Virus record (IMG/VR): IMGVR_UViG_3300023213_000432
Location: 1-64,000 of that record
DNA: 64,000 nt
Source: a virus
Lineage: Duplodnaviria; Caudoviricetes
Strand: one strand, 5' to 3'
The position numbers were made by a program, and so were the translations under genes. Shown here in pieces: positions 13,375 to 24,665 of this stretch. The notes beneath the pieces are model-generated. The model saw nothing but the letters and a program-made list of their open reading frames with translations, made no database searches and was not told the DNA's origin. Each line of letters starts with the position of its first letter. The stretch's first letter is position 1.

Positions 13375-13457
13375 GGATGATTAGACCCGTATGGTTCGGG
13401 GCGTGACTGTAGATCACGCGCCTTAGTGCCGTCTCGGTTCGATTCCGAGGTCATCCA
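13375..13457 (+). tRNA. tRNA-Tyr(GTA)
   Basis: GGATGAT/GTCATCC acceptor, CGTGA-CTGTAGA-TCACG anticodon arm, long variable arm, CTCGG-TTCGATT-CCGAG; followed by CTA not CCA. Confidence 0.9.
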
Positions 13458-13701: not shown

Positions 13702-13777
13702 GTCTCTGTATGCCGCTCGGCTTCTATCCGAGAGAAAGCTAACTGGAAACATATAGGTTCGAATCCTATCAGAGACA
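13702..13777 (+). tRNA. atypical tRNA-like RNA (possible D-armless Arg-TCT or pseudo-tRNA)
   Basis: perfect GTCTCTG/CAGAGAC acceptor and ATAGG-TTCGAAT-CCTAT T arm; only one internal hairpin CTCGG-CTTCTAT-CCGAG. Confidence 0.6.
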
Positions 13778-16603: not shown

Positions 16604-17020
16604 ATGTTAATGCGTACCGGACTATTTTTTGAGCATCATGGTATAGCTGATCCAATGTACGACGGTCTTCGAATGACCATTCCAGTTAGGGAATCGCTTG
16701 AGGCTAATGGTCATGTTGTGACTCCAAATGGCGATCTATTCACTGTCATACTGTCCGGTCGTCGTATGTCTCGTGATGTTGTTGCTTGCTGCATTGTGGG
16801 TAAGGAATATCTTGCGCTTCGTCTCGACAATGAACCAGAATATCCGGGGGAATGTCCCGCTGCGTGGTATCAGCGTGGTGAGTGGCTACCTTGCCCTCAA
16901 TGTGGTGCGCCTATCGTATGGTACGAGGCCGGGTACGTGCCAGGCTATCGTGTGTGCGTTCGCAAACCGCATCACCATTGCCAGCTATCGAATGATGGCA
17001 GGAAAGTAAAGCTCGTTTGA
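16604..17020 (+). CDS. hypothetical zinc-ribbon protein
   Basis: AGGAG RBS; CPQCG..WYEAGYVPGYRVC; GC-richer than flanks. Confidence 0.65.
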   Translation: MLMRTGLFFEHHGIADPMYDGLRMTIPVRESLEANGHVVTPNGDLFTVILSGRRMSRDVVACCIVGKEYLALRLDNEPEYPGECPAAWYQRGEWLPCPQCGAPIVWYEAGYVPGYRVCVRKPHHHCQLSNDGRKVKLV

Positions 17021-17076
17021 AACATATGATCCAAAAGATTATTTACAATATCATGATCGAAATAGATCGGAAACGG

Positions 17077-17094
17077 TTCCCATCGCCTAACGGC
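17077..17094 (+). repeat. dispersed 18-bp motif
   Basis: exact intergenic copy. Confidence 0.95.
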
Positions 17095-17143
17095 ACCAAT
17101 TCAATCGACGAAAAAACTTCGCTATCTTGGTAAGATAGACGGG

Positions 17144-17170
17144 TGCTACAGCCGACCTGTAGCATTTTTT
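17144..17170 (+). terminator. intrinsic-terminator-like hairpin in a gene leader
   Basis: TGCTACAG-CCGAC-CTGTAGCA-T6, 5 nt before ATG 17176. Confidence 0.45.
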
Positions 17171-17175
17171 AGAAA

Positions 17176-17406
17176 ATGGAGTATATCATGGATAACGTTA
17201 ATATCACCAAAGAAGGCGAGAATGTTCTCGTCATCCGTATCGACACAAGCAAACGATACGGTCTTTCGCAATCGGGCGATTCGGAGAAAGTTGCGACGAC
17301 GGGCGCACCGCAGTCCTTGGCGGATCAGGGTTTCCCTGGCCTCAAGCTCGGTCTCACCCTTTTCCGTCCTCTTTCGAAAGAAGAGAAAGCAGCCGCGCGA
17401 AAGTAA
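17176..17406 (+). CDS. small phage protein, paralog of 31841
   Basis: ENVLVIRID...SQSGDSEKVA vs ENVLTIKVD...SQSGKSDRVA. Confidence 0.75.
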   Translation: MEYIMDNVNITKEGENVLVIRIDTSKRYGLSQSGDSEKVATTGAPQSLADQGFPGLKLGLTLFRPLSKEEKAAARK

Positions 17407-17410
17407 GCAA

Positions 17411-17784
17411 CTCTTGTTAGCTTAAGTTATTAAGTTAGCACGAGTAAGTGGGGAGAAACTACTTAACAAGTGTTTCTCATGCGATCTCATCAATCGCATA
17501 AGGCAAGGTATCATCGAGAATTGGTTGATGACCACGTAGATCGGTGATTACGAAAACAGGCTTGCCATTAGTAGAAGGGCGTTGGGTTAGGACACGGGCT
17601 CTTTTACGAGATAGTTATAAACTGAAATATTAAGAAAGAGCCCGGCAGAATTATAACCTGCGATCTCCAAAACTGCTAGTCTGGCGGGTTACCGCTTCCC
17701 TACGGGCTCAAAGCATTTTAACGTCCCTGCTAGAAATTGGCATCCTTCAAGACCTCCCCACTAAGATATATTGAAGGATGTCAA
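17411..17784 (+). ncRNA. candidate ~380-nt structured ncRNA, family unknown
   Basis: no ORF; six hairpins of 7-14 bp and a 9-bp long-range pairing 17447-55/17754-62; strand uncertain. Confidence 0.5.
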
Positions 17785-17849
17785 GACAGTCCTAGGTCAT
17801 GACTCTAAACTGATCTAATTTTTAAATACATAACAACAAAGATTGTTCA

Positions 17850-18047
17850 ATGATTATGGACTGTCATAATGTGGATGTTCCGAAAGATAAAAGTTATTGG
17901 GACATTTGTTGGGAAAACTTTTTCCAACATTGTAATGAGGGCGAAGCAGAACTTGATGCTATGGTCGAGTTGGAACAATTGGCTGCAAGATGGGCTAAAA
18001 AACGTGTGTTACGTCTGCGAGCCTTTTCTCATCATTTAGCTAGGTAA
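17850..18047 (+). CDS. hypothetical protein
   Basis: ORF track. Confidence 0.55.
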   Translation: MIMDCHNVDVPKDKSYWDICWENFFQHCNEGEAELDAMVELEQLAARWAKKRVLRLRAFSHHLAR

Positions 18048-18050
18048 AAT

Positions 18051-18374
18051 ATGTGGTTACCTTACGATCCTAAAAATCCACCTAAAATTGGTCAGCTGGT
18101 TAGATATCGATATTATTCCGAGCTGCTTTGGCAGGAGGGACGTGTATCCTCCACAGGATTTTTGTATTTAGGGTGTGTCGATCCTTATGATAGAGAATGG
18201 GAAATATGGCGGGAAGATGAACCATGCCATAATACTTTGCCGAAATCGGTATTGTCAGAACGAGATCGAGAGATTGCTTTCTTCCGCAAAGTAGATATGG
18301 GATGTTGTATTTGTGGGATCAAACAGGAAATGTGCTTTTATCATAAGGAATTGCCCAATGCCAATCGAACTTAA
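18051..18374 (+). CDS. hypothetical protein, W.PYD..PP family
   Basis: paralog of 4433; N-terminus shared with 29864 and 32383. Confidence 0.75.
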   Translation: MWLPYDPKNPPKIGQLVRYRYYSELLWQEGRVSSTGFLYLGCVDPYDREWEIWREDEPCHNTLPKSVLSERDREIAFFRKVDMGCCICGIKQEMCFYHKELPNANRT

Positions 18375-18594
18375 AAATAGAAAGCTATACGAGATTTTGA
18401 GAGACCAAAAAGTAGTCATTCAAAAAGCCGCACCATTGTCAAGTTCTAATTCTTTCTTTGTTTATATGTTCCTTACTGAAGGCGAGCTTCTGGCATTATC
18501 CAATGCTTTGAAAACTAATCCAACTCCGGTTGGTTCCAATGTTTTAAACTATTTGAATCATGCTATCACAGAAGCAAAAACAGATCTTAAATGA
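18358..18594 (+). CDS. hypothetical protein
   Basis: start re-called at MPIEL; ATGA overlap with ligase. Confidence 0.6.
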   Translation: MPIELKNRKLYEILRDQKVVIQKAAPLSSSNSFFVYMFLTEGELLALSNALKTNPTPVGSNVLNYLNHAITEAKTDLK

Positions 18595-19619
18595 CACGTT
18601 TCAAGCTTCTGACCAGAGACCAATTTAGAGAACAAGTTTTTGCCAGAGATAAATATCAGTGCGTGGTTTGTAAAGCGGCTGCGGTCGATTCCCACCATGT
18701 TCTCGAAAGACGTTTGTTTAGCGATGGTGGCTATTATCTTACCAATGGAGTTTCCGTCTGTGCCGAATGCCATCTTCAAGCAGAAGCTACTACCATTTCT
18801 TGTGATAAATTGAGAGAATTAGCCGGAATCAAAGAGTTCCCCATTCCAGATCATTTGGATCTCAACGGCAAATATGATAAATGGGGTAACGAAATTCTTC
18901 CCAATGGGATGCGGTTGAAGGGAGAGTTGTTCGAGGAAGTTCCGGTGCAGAAAATATTGGCACCAATGCTGTCATTATTTGGAGAGCATTTTAAATATCC
19001 ACGAACTTACCATTTTCCATGGAGCCACGGACTGATCAATGATGATCGGATGCTGGAAGATTTATCATCTTTTCAGGGAGAGCAAGTAGTTTCTACCGTT
19101 AAAATGGACGGAGAGAATACTACTTTTTATTCTGATCATCTTCACGCCCGCTCTTTGGACTACAAGCCTCATCCGTCCCGAGACTGGATCAAATCACTAC
19201 ATGGGAGAATCGCTCACGAGATCCCGAAAGGTTATAGAGTCTGCGGAGAAAATGTTTTCGCATCACATTCCATTTATTATCAGCACTTGGACGATTACTT
19301 TTTCGTTTTCTCAGTTTGGAACGATAAGAACGTGTGTCAATCGTGGGATGAAACGGTAGAGTGGGCAGAATTGCTTGGACTGAAAACCGTCCCAATTCTC
19401 TATGATGGAATATGGGATGAGACCAAAATCAAAGGATTGTATCAGGAAGTATTTAACGGGGATCCGTGCGAAGGATATGTGATCAGGGTGAGACGGGCAT
19501 TTCACTATCGGGAGTTCAAAAATGTTGTTGGTAAGTTTGTAAGAAAGGGACATGTTAGTCCCGACAACGATCACTGGATGCATCAGAAAGTTATTCCAAA
19601 CAAATTGAGAACTTCATGA
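18591..19619 (+). CDS. HNH-domain-fused ATP-dependent RNA ligase
   Basis: N-term CVVC..DSHHV..N..CAECH; ligase KYPRT, motif I KMDGEN, GEN, EGYV, GKFVR. Confidence 0.85.
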   Translation: MTRFKLLTRDQFREQVFARDKYQCVVCKAAAVDSHHVLERRLFSDGGYYLTNGVSVCAECHLQAEATTISCDKLRELAGIKEFPIPDHLDLNGKYDKWGNEILPNGMRLKGELFEEVPVQKILAPMLSLFGEHFKYPRTYHFPWSHGLINDDRMLEDLSSFQGEQVVSTVKMDGENTTFYSDHLHARSLDYKPHPSRDWIKSLHGRIAHEIPKGYRVCGENVFASHSIYYQHLDDYFFVFSVWNDKNVCQSWDETVEWAELLGLKTVPILYDGIWDETKIKGLYQEVFNGDPCEGYVIRVRRAFHYREFKNVVGKFVRKGHVSPDNDHWMHQKVIPNKLRTS

Positions 19620-23278: not shown

Positions 23279-23636
23279 GGGCCCAAACAGGTTTCGACGG
23301 GGAAATGTAGTTAATATTGCGTACAAGAGCGTTCGAACTCTTTTAATCGAACAACGTTATAAATGCTAACGATAATAATGCATTTGTTCAGATGCCCTTG
23401 GCAGCCTGAGCACGGCTTAACAATAAGAAGTTCTGGTAATCGTTAAGTTGTCAACCCACAAGAACTGACAGCGCGGAAAGACGAGCAAACAACAGTTTCT
23501 CGTGTTCTGTCAAAACACGATGTTGGAGGACAAAACGGAAATCCGTTCGTCCTTCGTTTCTGAACGTAAATCAGATATGTACGTAGATGGTATTATTGAA
23601 ATTTTTCCGGACGCCGTTCAATTCGGCATGGGTCCA
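23279..23636 (+). ncRNA. ssrA: tmRNA
   Basis: 5' GGGCCCA..GGTTTCGACGGGG, 3' T arm GCCG-TTCAATT-CGGC and TGGGTCCA; tag frame 23365-23409 ANDNNAFVQMPLAA*. Confidence 0.95.
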
Positions 23637-24665
23637 CTATGACGCTTTCTTGGCAATATTGCATTTATTATGATTGGCAACTTCTTTACAAAATTCAATC
23701 ACTTGTTCATCAGTAAAAGTATTGCGAGCATAATTAGCCATAAGTGATACGAATCTAACATTACCAGCAACATATCCTTTGGAATTGTCAATACGATCTA
23801 AGCTTGCGTTGTATGGGCTGAGTTTAATTTGCCCACCTTCCCCGCTGTTCTTTGGAAGTATCATCGTTTGATTAGTAAAGGGACACATACCTAATTGTAA
23901 GTCCCATAAGTTTTTCAAATAATATTCGGAAACTGGTATGCCATACTTTTCTCTTTTTTCTTTTGCTCGGTTTCGTAAAATTTTAGAAAACCATTTAAAC
24001 GGCGAATAGACGTCCGATTTTGAATGTTGTATTATGACAGAGAGATCTTGATCATGCATTGTAGGATTCAACGATAATGCGATCCATTCCATTTTGATAG
24101 TTGCGTCATATTGATGAGCATTAGCTACGATCTGACAAAAGTCAATCAATTCTTCATCAGAAAATATATTTCTGGCATAATTTGCCATCAGCGATATAAA
24201 CCTAACATTTTCTACAATATATCCCACTTCATTGTTAATTCTATCAAGGCTACCGTTGTTTGGTTTGTGATAATCCCAACCACAAGATCCTCTTGGTAAG
24301 TTCAAAAAATTGCCCGTAAATGGACAAGTGCCTGTTTGAGTATGCCACAATTCTTTTAAAAAATTTTCAGATATATTGCTTAGTCCAATCCGTGTAAACT
24401 TTTTTTTAGTTTTGGAGTAACTCTGTCTGGTTCTAATTCGTCGTGTGAACCACCTAAATGGAGATAGTTCGTCCATTTTCTTTACGGGCAAATTTTCAAT
24501 ATGACCTACATGTTTTCTTGGTATTTCTCTATTGCCATAAACCATGGAACATGAAAGAGAACAAAAGAATCTTGTATGTCCTTTTCTCATACGACGATCG
24601 TATTCCTTCTTCTCTTTAACGAAAAGCTTCTTGCACTCAAAGCATTCTAATTCAACTGTTTTCAT
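23637..24665 (-). CDS. tandem-domain HNH-like (SLDRID-type) endonuclease
   Basis: two copies of CPFT...SLDRI.N..GY...NVRF.SLMANYARN; N-terminal CxxC..CS..C. Confidence 0.8.
   Translation of the reverse strand: MKTVELECFECKKLFVKEKKEYDRRMRKGHTRFFCSLSCSMVYGNREIPRKHVGHIENLPVKKMDELSPFRWFTRRIRTRQSYSKTKKKFTRIGLSNISENFLKELWHTQTGTCPFTGNFLNLPRGSCGWDYHKPNNGSLDRINNEVGYIVENVRFISLMANYARNIFSDEELIDFCQIVANAHQYDATIKMEWIALSLNPTMHDQDLSVIIQHSKSDVYSPFKWFSKILRNRAKEKREKYGIPVSEYYLKNLWDLQLGMCPFTNQTMILPKNSGEGGQIKLSPYNASLDRIDNSKGYVAGNVRFVSLMANYARNTFTDEQVIEFCKEVANHNKCNIAKKAS

What the first reader, a model, noticed from the sequence alone, without database searches (positions are those of the whole stretch)
17411..17784. 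Unassigned ~380-nt highly structured non-coding region
Seen: an ORF-free gap in a densely coded region, with an 11-bp hairpin (17414-41), GAGAAAC/GTTTCTC, ATGCGAT/ATCGCAT, TCATCGA/TTGATGA, CGGGCTCTTT/AAAGAGCCCG (17595-644) and a 14-bp terminal stem (17737-84). The loop of that stem (CTCCCCACT) is perfectly complementary to AGTGGGGAG 300 nt upstream, a long-range pseudoknot. I could not match it to RNase P, group I/II intron or riboswitch hallmarks. Inference: a novel large phage ncRNA.
Basis: partly seen in the sequence, partly recalled or inferred. Interest (0 to 1): 0.62.

Follow-up and report, generated by a model that had tools for sequence, protein, structure and literature searches.

The report
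Odd tRNA gene inside structured spacer
The "novel large RNA" is a 443-base non-coding spacer in a huge uncultured phage that hides a complete but odd tRNA-like gene on the opposite strand (8-base instead of 7-base anticodon loop). It also folds unusually well on the forward strand, and no relative could be found to test a larger RNA.

Summary

On the + strand this is the most persistently structured stretch of the 198-kb phage record (rank 1 of 2640). The - strand folds no better than background.

The interpretation, one large ncRNA tied by a long-range pseudoknot, is only partly supported:
It scores 46.7 bits on Rfam tRNA (gathering score 29), and ARAGORN calls it too.
- This gene has an 8-nt anticodon loop (CUAGCAGU), a T loop with A56 in place of C56, a Cys-like body and no encoded CCA. 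It is the only tRNA gene on that strand.
- The 9-nt "pseudoknot" complementarity occurs in 19% of shuffled sequences.
- The spacer lies downstream of a 16-copy, + strand-only, promoter-like motif, so the + strand is probably transcribed as operon RNA.

No homologue of the spacer, the tRNA or the flanking ORFs was found, so covariation cannot be tested. No Rfam family other than tRNA fits.

A genome scan found no sites that would need quadruplet decoding.

Verdict: a composite of a non-canonical phage tRNA and a structured operon spacer. Moderate interest.

The parts
17078..17097 (+). Context: one copy of the repeated motif TTCCCATCGCCTAACGGCA, a probable phage promoter that would drive + strand transcription through the gap
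   Evidence: The core CATCGCCTAAC occurs 16 times in the record, always on + and always intergenic upstream of genes. Promoter function is inferred.
17145..17171 (+). Context: terminator-like hairpin (8-bp stem TGCTACAG/CTGTAGCA) followed by T6, in the leader of ORF 17188
   Evidence: Read from the sequence. Fold -13 kcal/mol, z -2.9. Not listed by the consensus scan.
17188..17406 (+). Upstream flanking ORF (72 aa, GGAG Shine-Dalgarno), an orphan
   Evidence: Codon score +0.18 in frame and not above zero in the other five frames. Its only database match is itself. No tblastn hit in phages.
17410..17445 (+). H1: 15-bp hairpin (4+11 bp, 2 G.U pairs) 4 nt after the stop codon
   Evidence: z -4.25, 0/200 shuffles, pair probability 0.98. 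The G.U pairs become A.C mismatches on the - strand.
17453..17499 (+). H2 (7+4 bp, 17453-17478) and H3 (7 bp, 17479-17499), strand-symmetric hairpins
   Evidence: pair probabilities 0.88-0.98.
17502..17566 (+). H4: three-tier hairpin (6+8+5 bp)
   Evidence: pair probabilities 0.93-0.99 on +, but only 0.35-0.6 on -.
17569..17732 (+). Predicted closed domain. A 16-bp helix (17569-86 with 17717-32, 5 G.U pairs) encloses H5 and the antisense of the tRNA
   Evidence: pair probabilities 0.79-0.88. A prediction only, with no covariation.
17595..17644 (.). H5: perfect 10-bp inverted repeat (11 bp with a G.U on +). One arm is the tRNA's 3' acceptor strand plus its trailer
   Evidence: On the - strand it competes with the acceptor stem and wins in the MFE fold.
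17637..17709 (-). tRNA-like gene with 7/3/5/5-bp stems:
- 8-nt anticodon loop CUAGCAGU (17679->17672)
- D loop AGCGGUA with an A13.A22 mismatch
- T loop UUAUAAU
- U73 discriminator, no encoded CCA
   Evidence: Rfam RF00005 46.7 bits (gathering score 29), E 1.5e-8 and 6e-10 per genome. ARAGORN calls it tRNA-?(Ala|Cys)(agca). Cloverleaf -24.6 against MFE -26.1 kcal/mol.
17715..17743 (-). Weak sigma-70-like site ATGCCA-17-TAAAAT. Its -10 hexamer ends 6 nt before the tRNA 5' end
   Evidence: 9 of 12 matches. The number of such sites in the region (4) is what shuffles give (4.4), so this is not evidence of a promoter.
17737..17784 (+). H7: 14-bp hairpin (1 G.U pair) with a 20-nt loop
   Evidence: z -4.25, 0/200 shuffles.
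17754..17762 (+). CTCCCCACT in the H7 loop, complementary to AGTGGGGAG at 17447-17455 (the proposed pseudoknot)
   Evidence: Exists, but 19% of shuffles hold such a repeat.
17793..17824 (+). H8: 7-bp hairpin followed by ATTTTTAAAT, a weak terminator-like element
   Evidence: pair probability 0.67. Only 2 G-C pairs.
17850..18047 (+). Downstream flanking ORF (65 aa), an orphan with no clear Shine-Dalgarno sequence
   Evidence: Codon score +0.30 in frame. No tblastn hit. Sequence read.

Best explanation
The gap is a composite of two things on opposite strands, not one RNA.

(1) Minus strand, 17709->17637: a complete tRNA-like gene.
- It has an expanded 8-nt anticodon loop, CUAGCAGU.
- With U33 and A37 in their usual places the loop presents AGC, which reads GCU, the phage's commonest Ala codon. 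Shifted by one base it presents GCA (Cys).
- The body resembles tRNA-Cys: U73, a 3-bp D stem closed by A13.A22, and D loop AGCGGUA.
- It lacks the G3:U70 pair of tRNA-Ala.
- I infer that it is transcribed on its own by host RNA polymerase, trimmed and given CCA by host or phage enzymes. It then acts in or on translation as one of this phage's set of non-canonical tRNAs. The likeliest role is a triplet decoder with an altered, nuclease-insensitive or shift-prone anticodon loop. Less likely, it is a decoy for tRNA-targeting host defences.

(2) Plus strand: the spacer is part of an operon transcript that starts at the repeated promoter-like motif at 17078-97.
- It folds into a row of stable, well-defined hairpins (H1-H5, H7, H8).
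- I infer these act as mRNA processing or stability elements. They may also shield the message from pairing with the antisense tRNA transcript.

Shown: the tRNA-like gene, the non-coding nature of the gap, the + strand-specific excess of structure, and the repeated motif.

Inferred: transcription of either strand, charging, decoding, and the role of the hairpins.
For: - tRNA model 46.7 bits (gathering score 29), found by two independent programs, and the fourth-best tRNA of the record.
- All four stems are intact. U8, A14, G18G19, A21, U33, U54U55 and A58 are present.
- The D loop, the A13.A22 mismatch and U73 match E. coli cysT (sequences read directly).
- GCT is 41% of Ala codons.
- The gap is non-coding and the flanking ORFs score as coding.
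- The + strand fold is an outlier and well defined: centroid -132 against MFE -137 kcal/mol, with pair probabilities 0.9-0.99. The - strand is ordinary: centroid -73 against MFE -116.
- The 16-copy motif is found only on the + strand, upstream of genes.
- The tRNA part has its G.U pairs on the - strand, while the flanking helices have theirs on the + strand.
- Expanded anticodon loops are rare but known, including in phage tRNAs, and are not known to force frameshifting (PMC5009743).
Against: - It is the only tRNA gene on the - strand; all others and the tmRNA are on +.
- Its putative promoter is no better than chance, and no - strand terminator follows it.
- A56 replaces the near-universal C56, and the loop has 8 nt, so it may not work on the ribosome.
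- On the - strand precursor, H5 out-competes the acceptor stem in the MFE fold.
- No homologue was found, so neither the tRNA nor the hairpins can be shown to be conserved.
- No transcription data.
- A closing helix predicted around 17569-17732 hints that the + strand may be more than loose hairpins.
Confidence: 0.55

Rival explanations
1. One reading: one discrete + strand non-coding RNA of about 350-450 nt (roughly 17410-17820) is the functional product. The tRNA-like cloverleaf is only its antisense image, or an embedded relic.
For: - The + strand is the most persistently structured stretch of the record, and the asymmetry against the - strand is in the top 0.6%.
- The fold is well defined.
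- A predicted 16-bp helix closes a 165-nt domain.
- The spacer lies in a + strand transcription unit.
- No Rfam family fits.
Against: - A 46.7-bit tRNA match on the other strand (E 6e-10 per genome) is not a coincidence.
- The + strand of that segment lacks tRNA or any other family features.
- The pseudoknot is within chance.
- Most of the structure is local hairpins.
- No defined ends: no promoter inside the gap and no clear terminator.
- No homologues.
Confidence: 0.15
2. Decay product. A former + strand tRNA gene was inverted and then disabled by a 1-nt slip in a T run. The surrounding hairpins are leftovers without function.
For: - Wrong strand relative to every other tRNA gene.
- 8-nt loop, A56, no credible promoter or terminator.
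- The extra base lies in a run of four U (17669-17672).
- The tRNA-containing segment is flanked by a 9-nt inverted repeat that could have mediated an inversion.
- The locus is unique, with no relatives.
Against: - All 20 stem pairs are intact and the conserved D-loop and T-loop bases are kept, which is unexpected after long decay.
- The + strand-specific structure, which uses G.U pairs, needs selection or a very recent origin.
- Earlier notes on this genome report several other intact non-canonical tRNA-like genes. I saw two more myself. That suggests a maintained class.
Confidence: 0.2
3. The 8-nt loop is an assembly artefact. With three rather than four U after CUAGCAG the gene would be a canonical 7-nt-loop tRNA with anticodon AGC.
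For: - The extra base sits in a homopolymer (A4 on + at 17669-17672).
- Removing one base gives C32 U33 AGC A37 G38 with the same 5-bp stem (read).
- The record is a metagenome assembly.
Against: - Runs of four are rarely miscalled in short-read assemblies.
- Even when corrected, the tRNA stays odd: A34, A56, no G3:U70, - strand.
Confidence: 0.08
4. An ORF-less self-splicing intron or other ribozyme sits between two exons (ORF 17188 and ORF 17850).
For: - The size (443 nt), coding-strand structure and weak ribosome site of the downstream ORF would fit.
- AAGAUAUA in the H7 loop resembles part of the group I S element. That resemblance is from my memory, so it is a lead only.
Against: - No match to group I, group II or any small ribozyme model at E up to 10.
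- The upstream ORF ends in its own stop codon before the first hairpin.
- The downstream frame is closed upstream at 17823-25, so no fusion is needed or evident.
- A tRNA gene on the other strand is unexplained by this account.
Confidence: 0.02

Closest known systems
Natural tRNAs with enlarged anticodon loops: yeast mitochondrial tRNA-Thr1 (8-nt loop, reads CUN triplets), and the 'tRNAs in a phage' and glass-sponge mitochondrial tRNA listed by Atkins et al. 2016 (PMC5009743; PMC3113583)
   Same: Complete cloverleaf with one extra base in the anticodon loop. It is found in a compact genome that carries its own tRNA set. No need for frameshifting is evident.
   Different: - Cys-like body with an AGC/GCA loop.
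- A56 in the T loop.
- It lies antisense inside an operon.
- No relatives are known, and charging and decoding are untested.
Laboratory +1 frameshift-suppressor tRNAs (sufD, sufA6, SufB2, SufJ) with 8-nt anticodon loops (PMC4238358; 10.1101/2020.12.31.424971)
   Same: An extra nucleotide beside the anticodon in an otherwise normal tRNA.
   Different: Those arose as suppressors of known frameshift mutations. Here the genome scan found no excess of +1 junctions at UGCU, GCUA or CUGC.
Bacterial tRNA-Cys (E. coli cysT)
   Same: U73, a 3-bp D stem with A13.A22, a 7-nt D loop AGCGGU(A/U), and GCA present in the loop.
   Different: GCA is displaced by one base. Position 37 would be G, not A. The T loop is UUAUAAU. 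The acceptor stem sequence is unrelated.
Structured intergenic spacers of phage operons, such as the RNase III processing hairpins of T7 early and late mRNAs (established knowledge, not tested here)
   Same: Stable hairpins between genes on the transcribed strand, without U tracts.
   Different: The spacer is much longer (443 nt, at least 7 helices). It embeds an antisense tRNA gene. No cleavage data.

Membership tests
tRNA (Rfam RF00005) | Score above the curated gathering threshold, with a full-length match | tested here: met
   46.7 bits against a threshold of 29, model positions 1-71. ARAGORN also calls it.
tRNA (Rfam RF00005) | Cloverleaf stems and conserved core bases (U8, A14, G18G19, U33, U54 U55 C56, A58) | tested here: inconclusive
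   Stems are 7/3/5/5 bp and all paired. All listed bases are present except C56, which is A.
tRNA (Rfam RF00005) | 7-nt anticodon loop | tested here: not met
   The loop CUAGCAGU has 8 nt. This is why I call it tRNA-like and non-canonical.
tRNA (Rfam RF00005) | Processed, CCA-tailed and aminoacylated | not testable with these tools
   CCA is not encoded (the trailer is UUUCUU). This needs tRNA sequencing or charging assays.
tRNA-Cys | U73 discriminator, plus the A13.A22 mismatch and short D loop of bacterial tRNA-Cys | tested here: met
   Direct comparison with E. coli cysT (L038:3915-3988:-).
tRNA-Cys | GCA at positions 34-36, followed by A37 | tested here: not met
   GCA is present but one base out of register, and it is followed by G.
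tRNA-Ala | G3:U70 pair | tested here: not met
   Here it is G3:C70. The phage's other AGC tRNA at 147116-147189 does have G3.U70.
Frameshift-suppressor / quadruplet-decoding tRNA | Genes that need a +1 shift at the matching four-base codon | tested here: not met
   +1 junction scan: TGCT 1, GCTA 1, CTGC 0, against a median of 3 per quadruplet. The single TGCT site (18333) is an ordinary gene overlap.
Known large or structured RNA families (GOLLD, ROOL, HEARO/omega RNA, OLE, T-box, group I/II introns, small ribozymes) | Match to the family covariance model | tested here: not met
   Nothing credible at E up to 10 on either strand of 16900-18100, apart from tRNA.
Y RNAs of this phage's Ro60 locus | Shared GGUUAUC handle; location beside Ro60 | tested here: not met
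   None of the 16 GGTTATC sites in the window falls in the gap. Ro60 is 21 kb away.
IS200/IS605-type element ends or omega RNA of the resident elements | Sequence similarity to the other copies in the genome | tested here: not met
   blastn-short of the gap against the whole record gave no repeat longer than 16 nt.

The most novel reading that the evidence does not exclude
The locus is a sense-antisense RNA pair.
- One partner is a - strand tRNA with an expanded anticodon loop that really acts on the ribosome, either as a shift-prone or dual-register AGC/GCA decoder, or as a decoy.
- The other is a discrete, folded + strand RNA of about 350-450 nt, made from the phage promoter. It contains the tRNA's full complement and gates the tRNA's expression or maturation during infection.

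Neither the RNA nor such a control circuit has a described family.
Probability: 0.12. Interest if true: 0.7.

Novelty: new variant of a known kind. Interest (0 to 1): 0.4.

Why it matters
Natural tRNAs with enlarged anticodon loops are very rare, and what they do is an open question. A phage example with an intact cloverleaf, a Cys-like body and an AGC/GCA loop gives a concrete object for charging and decoding assays.

Huge phages with many odd tRNA-like genes and RNA-repair enzymes are thought to fight host attacks on tRNA. This locus adds a case where the tRNA gene lies antisense within the most structured RNA stretch of the genome, which hints at control by the opposite transcript.

It is a single sequence without relatives, so for now it is a lead rather than a family.

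Tried and rejected
Searches for relatives (all blank or chance):
- Homologues of the gap: blastn against 50,697 phage records found nothing. blastn and nhmmer against 29 loci fetched through the neighbouring RNA ligase found nothing (IMG/VR, metagenomes, comparison). The scan's own index had nothing.
- Homologues of the tRNA: an exact 32-mer gave nothing. The anticodon-arm 18-mer gave one chance hit inside a tRNA-Trp T arm. A D-loop plus anticodon-loop pattern gave nothing. An anticodon-loop plus T-loop pattern gave 13 hits, none a tRNA. blastn of the tRNA against phages and E. coli gave only short arm matches or nothing.
- Flanking ORFs are orphans. The closest ligase relative is 64% identical, and no flanking ORF or gap sequence is shared with any fetched locus.
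- The distant relative G001 has 20 tRNA hits by Rfam; ARAGORN gave the 19 it called a normal three-base anticodon.

Ideas rejected:
- Known RNA families, group I/II introns and ribozymes.
- Y RNA.
- Repeat or mobile-element end.
- Required quadruplet decoding.
- Pseudoknot as evidence of a single RNA.
- Hidden small ORF.
- A tandem degenerate second tRNA. The direct repeats D2, D3 and D5 are not in a consistent register.

Full report
**Source.** The window is the first 64 kb of a 198,652-base IMG/VR virus record (GC 39%, CheckV completeness 46%). It is a huge uncultured phage. ARAGORN finds eight tRNA genes and a tmRNA at 23279-23637 in the record, and Rfam adds a further tRNA match at 13702-13777. 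An RNA ligase gene lies at 18591-19619 (PF09414).

**Observation.**
- The hairpin beside the stop codon spans 17410-17445.
- A codon log-likelihood model trained on the record's 68 ORFs of 250 aa or more scores the gap 17407-17849 at -0.5 to -1.1 in all six frames.
- The flanking ORFs score +0.18, +0.30 and +0.19 (17188-17406, 17850-18047, 18051-18374). The coding mean is 0.24 with sd 0.10.
- So the gap is a real 443-nt non-coding spacer between real, though orphan, genes.

**Is the structure more than chance?** Yes, but only on the + strand.
- 17405-17850 folds at -137 kcal/mol on + (z -5.7, 0 of 100 shuffles) and -116 on - (z -2.1).
- 17407-17636, which excludes the tRNA, gives z -4.4 (0/200) on + and -1.65 on -.
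- I folded every 230-nt window of the record on both strands and regressed energy on base composition.
- The four consecutive + strand windows 17251-17930 are all among the 30 best of 2646. Their mean ranks first of 2640.
- The strand asymmetry of window 17401 is in the top 0.6%.
- The + fold is well defined (centroid -132 against MFE -137, most pair probabilities 0.9-0.99). The - fold is not (centroid -73 against -116).

- A permissive Rfam scan of 16900-18100 finds a full-length tRNA on the - strand at 17709->17637 (46.7 bits, gathering score 29, E 1.5e-8).
- The whole-window scan at gathering thresholds did not list it. ARAGORN does, as tRNA-?(Ala|Cys) with "anticodon" agca.
- It is the fourth-best tRNA hit of the record.
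- Anatomy, and the sequence:
  - acceptor GAGCCCG/CGGGCUC;
  - U8 A9;
  - a 3-bp D stem GGG/CCC closed by an A13.A22 mismatch;
  - D loop AGCGGUA;
  - anticodon stem CCAGA/UUUGG;
  - an 8-nt loop CUAGCAGU (17679->17672);
  - variable loop AGAUC;
  - T stem GCAGG/UCUGC;
  - T loop UUAUAAU (A56, not C56);
  - discriminator U;
  - no encoded CCA.
- The cloverleaf costs -24.6 kcal/mol against an MFE of -26.1.
It pairs either with 17703-09 (the acceptor stem) or, extended by three bases, with 17595-604 (H5).

**Which tRNA?**
- The D loop, the A13.A22 mismatch and U73 are those of E. coli tRNA-Cys (cysT fetched, read).
- From memory, the same AAGCGGUAA D arm is typical of tRNA-Cys in other bacteria and in plastids. 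That is a lead, not a test.
- GCA is in the loop but one base out of register, and it is followed by G rather than A37.
- With U33 and A37 in place the triplet is AGC. That reads GCU, the phage's commonest Ala codon (41%).
- The phage has a second AGC tRNA at 147116-147189 that does carry G3.U70. The present gene has G3:C70, so it fails the tRNA-Ala identity rule.
- The extra base can be placed in the run of four U (A4 on + at 17669-17672). It could therefore be a slip or, less likely, an assembly error.

**Does the phage need four-base decoding?**
- I scanned both strands for places where a frame open for at least 70 codons meets a +1 frame open for at least 70 codons. There are 892 such quadruplet positions.
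- TGCT occurs once, GCTA once and CTGC never, against a median of 3 per quadruplet.
- The single TGCT site (18333) is a normal gene overlap, with an ATG preceded by AAGGAA. So there is no sign of required frameshifting.
- The literature agrees that natural enlarged anticodon loops need not cause frameshifting. The examples given are yeast mitochondrial tRNA-Thr1, "tRNAs in a phage" and a sponge mitochondrial tRNA (PMC5009743; PMC3113583).

**Transcription context.**
- A 19-nt motif, TTCCCATCGCCTAACGGCA, occurs 16 times in the record. It is always on +, and always in intergenic DNA ahead of genes.
- One copy is at 17078-97. It is followed by a terminator-like hairpin with T6 (17145-71) and then ORF 17188.
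- If the motif is a promoter (inference), the gap is transcribed on + as operon RNA. That fits the + strand-specific structure.
- The tRNA is the only tRNA gene on -.
- The sigma-70-like site ahead of the tRNA (ATGCCA-17-TAAAAT, 17743->17715) is well placed. However, the scan finds no more such sites than shuffles give.

**The pseudoknot.** The 9-nt complementarity is real. However, 377 of 2000 dinucleotide shuffles of the gap hold a perfect 9-nt inverted repeat at least 100 nt apart. It cannot carry the claim of one large RNA. It could equally be the trace of an inversion of the tRNA-bearing segment.

**Relatives.** None was found (details under tried and rejected). The RNA ligase's best relatives are 54-64% identical and share no flanking gene or spacer sequence. 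Covariation therefore could not be tested.

**Known families.** No Rfam family other than tRNA fits. The gap has no GGUUAUC handle of the phage's Y RNAs. It has no similarity to the resident mobile elements.

**Verdict.**
- The interpretation as a single novel large ncRNA is only partly supported.
- The best reading is a composite: a non-canonical, Cys-like tRNA gene with an 8-nt anticodon loop on the - strand, inside an exceptionally structured + strand operon spacer.
- The unexplained part is why this spacer is the most structured RNA stretch of the whole record. That keeps a modest chance of a real + strand RNA or a sense-antisense circuit.
- Earlier notes of this scan report further odd tRNA-like genes in the same phage. 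I did not check those beyond the AGC tRNA.

Noticed in passing
window 1122, 1895, 2333, 3703, 4753, 6436, 7427, 12185, 13339, 14445, 17081, 31729, 38090, 50841; also record 70204, 96945: A 19-nt motif TTCCCATCGCCTAACGGCA (core CATCGCCTAAC) occurs 16 times, all on the + strand and all intergenic, 15-100 nt ahead of start codons or tRNA-like genes. It is probably a phage-specific promoter.
   Followed up: partly
window 13375-13456 (+): A tRNA-like gene 25 nt after a promoter-motif copy. It scores best on the tRNA-Sec model (31.9 bits, below threshold), and its anticodon loop CUGUAGA gives GUA (Tyr). ARAGORN misses it.
   Followed up: partly
window 13702-13777 (+): A tRNA (39.9 bits) with an almost absent D arm (4 nt where the model expects 15), a 17-nt variable insert and anticodon UCU. 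ARAGORN misses it.
   Followed up: no
window 17145-17171 (+): A canonical-looking intrinsic terminator (8-bp stem, T6) sits between a promoter-motif copy and ORF 17188. It may be an attenuator. The consensus scan did not list it.
   Followed up: partly
L009, L010, L014, L015 (metagenome contigs with RNA-ligase homologues): Homologues of the 18591-19619 RNA ligase lie within or beside tRNA gene clusters in four of the 28 metagenome loci. In L010 a tRNA with the ochre anticodon UUA lies 226 nt upstream. This is consistent with a tRNA-repair role.
   Followed up: no
window 17763-17707 (-): GGGGAGG in the H7 loop is followed after 9 nt by an 11-codon ORF (MPISSRDVKML). Its stop codon overlaps the first base of the tRNA. 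Probably chance.
   Followed up: no
G001 (IMGVR_UViG_3300025534_000213) 71485-71556, locus L052: The distant relative carries a tRNA with the amber anticodon CUA among 20 otherwise ordinary tRNAs.
   Followed up: no
record 171901, 126301, 118651, 100351, 99451; window 5551, 44251: These are the other strongest structure outliers in the genome-wide fold scan. 44251 and 5551 coincide with the TnpB element end and its orphan copy reported in earlier notes. The rest were not examined.
   Followed up: no
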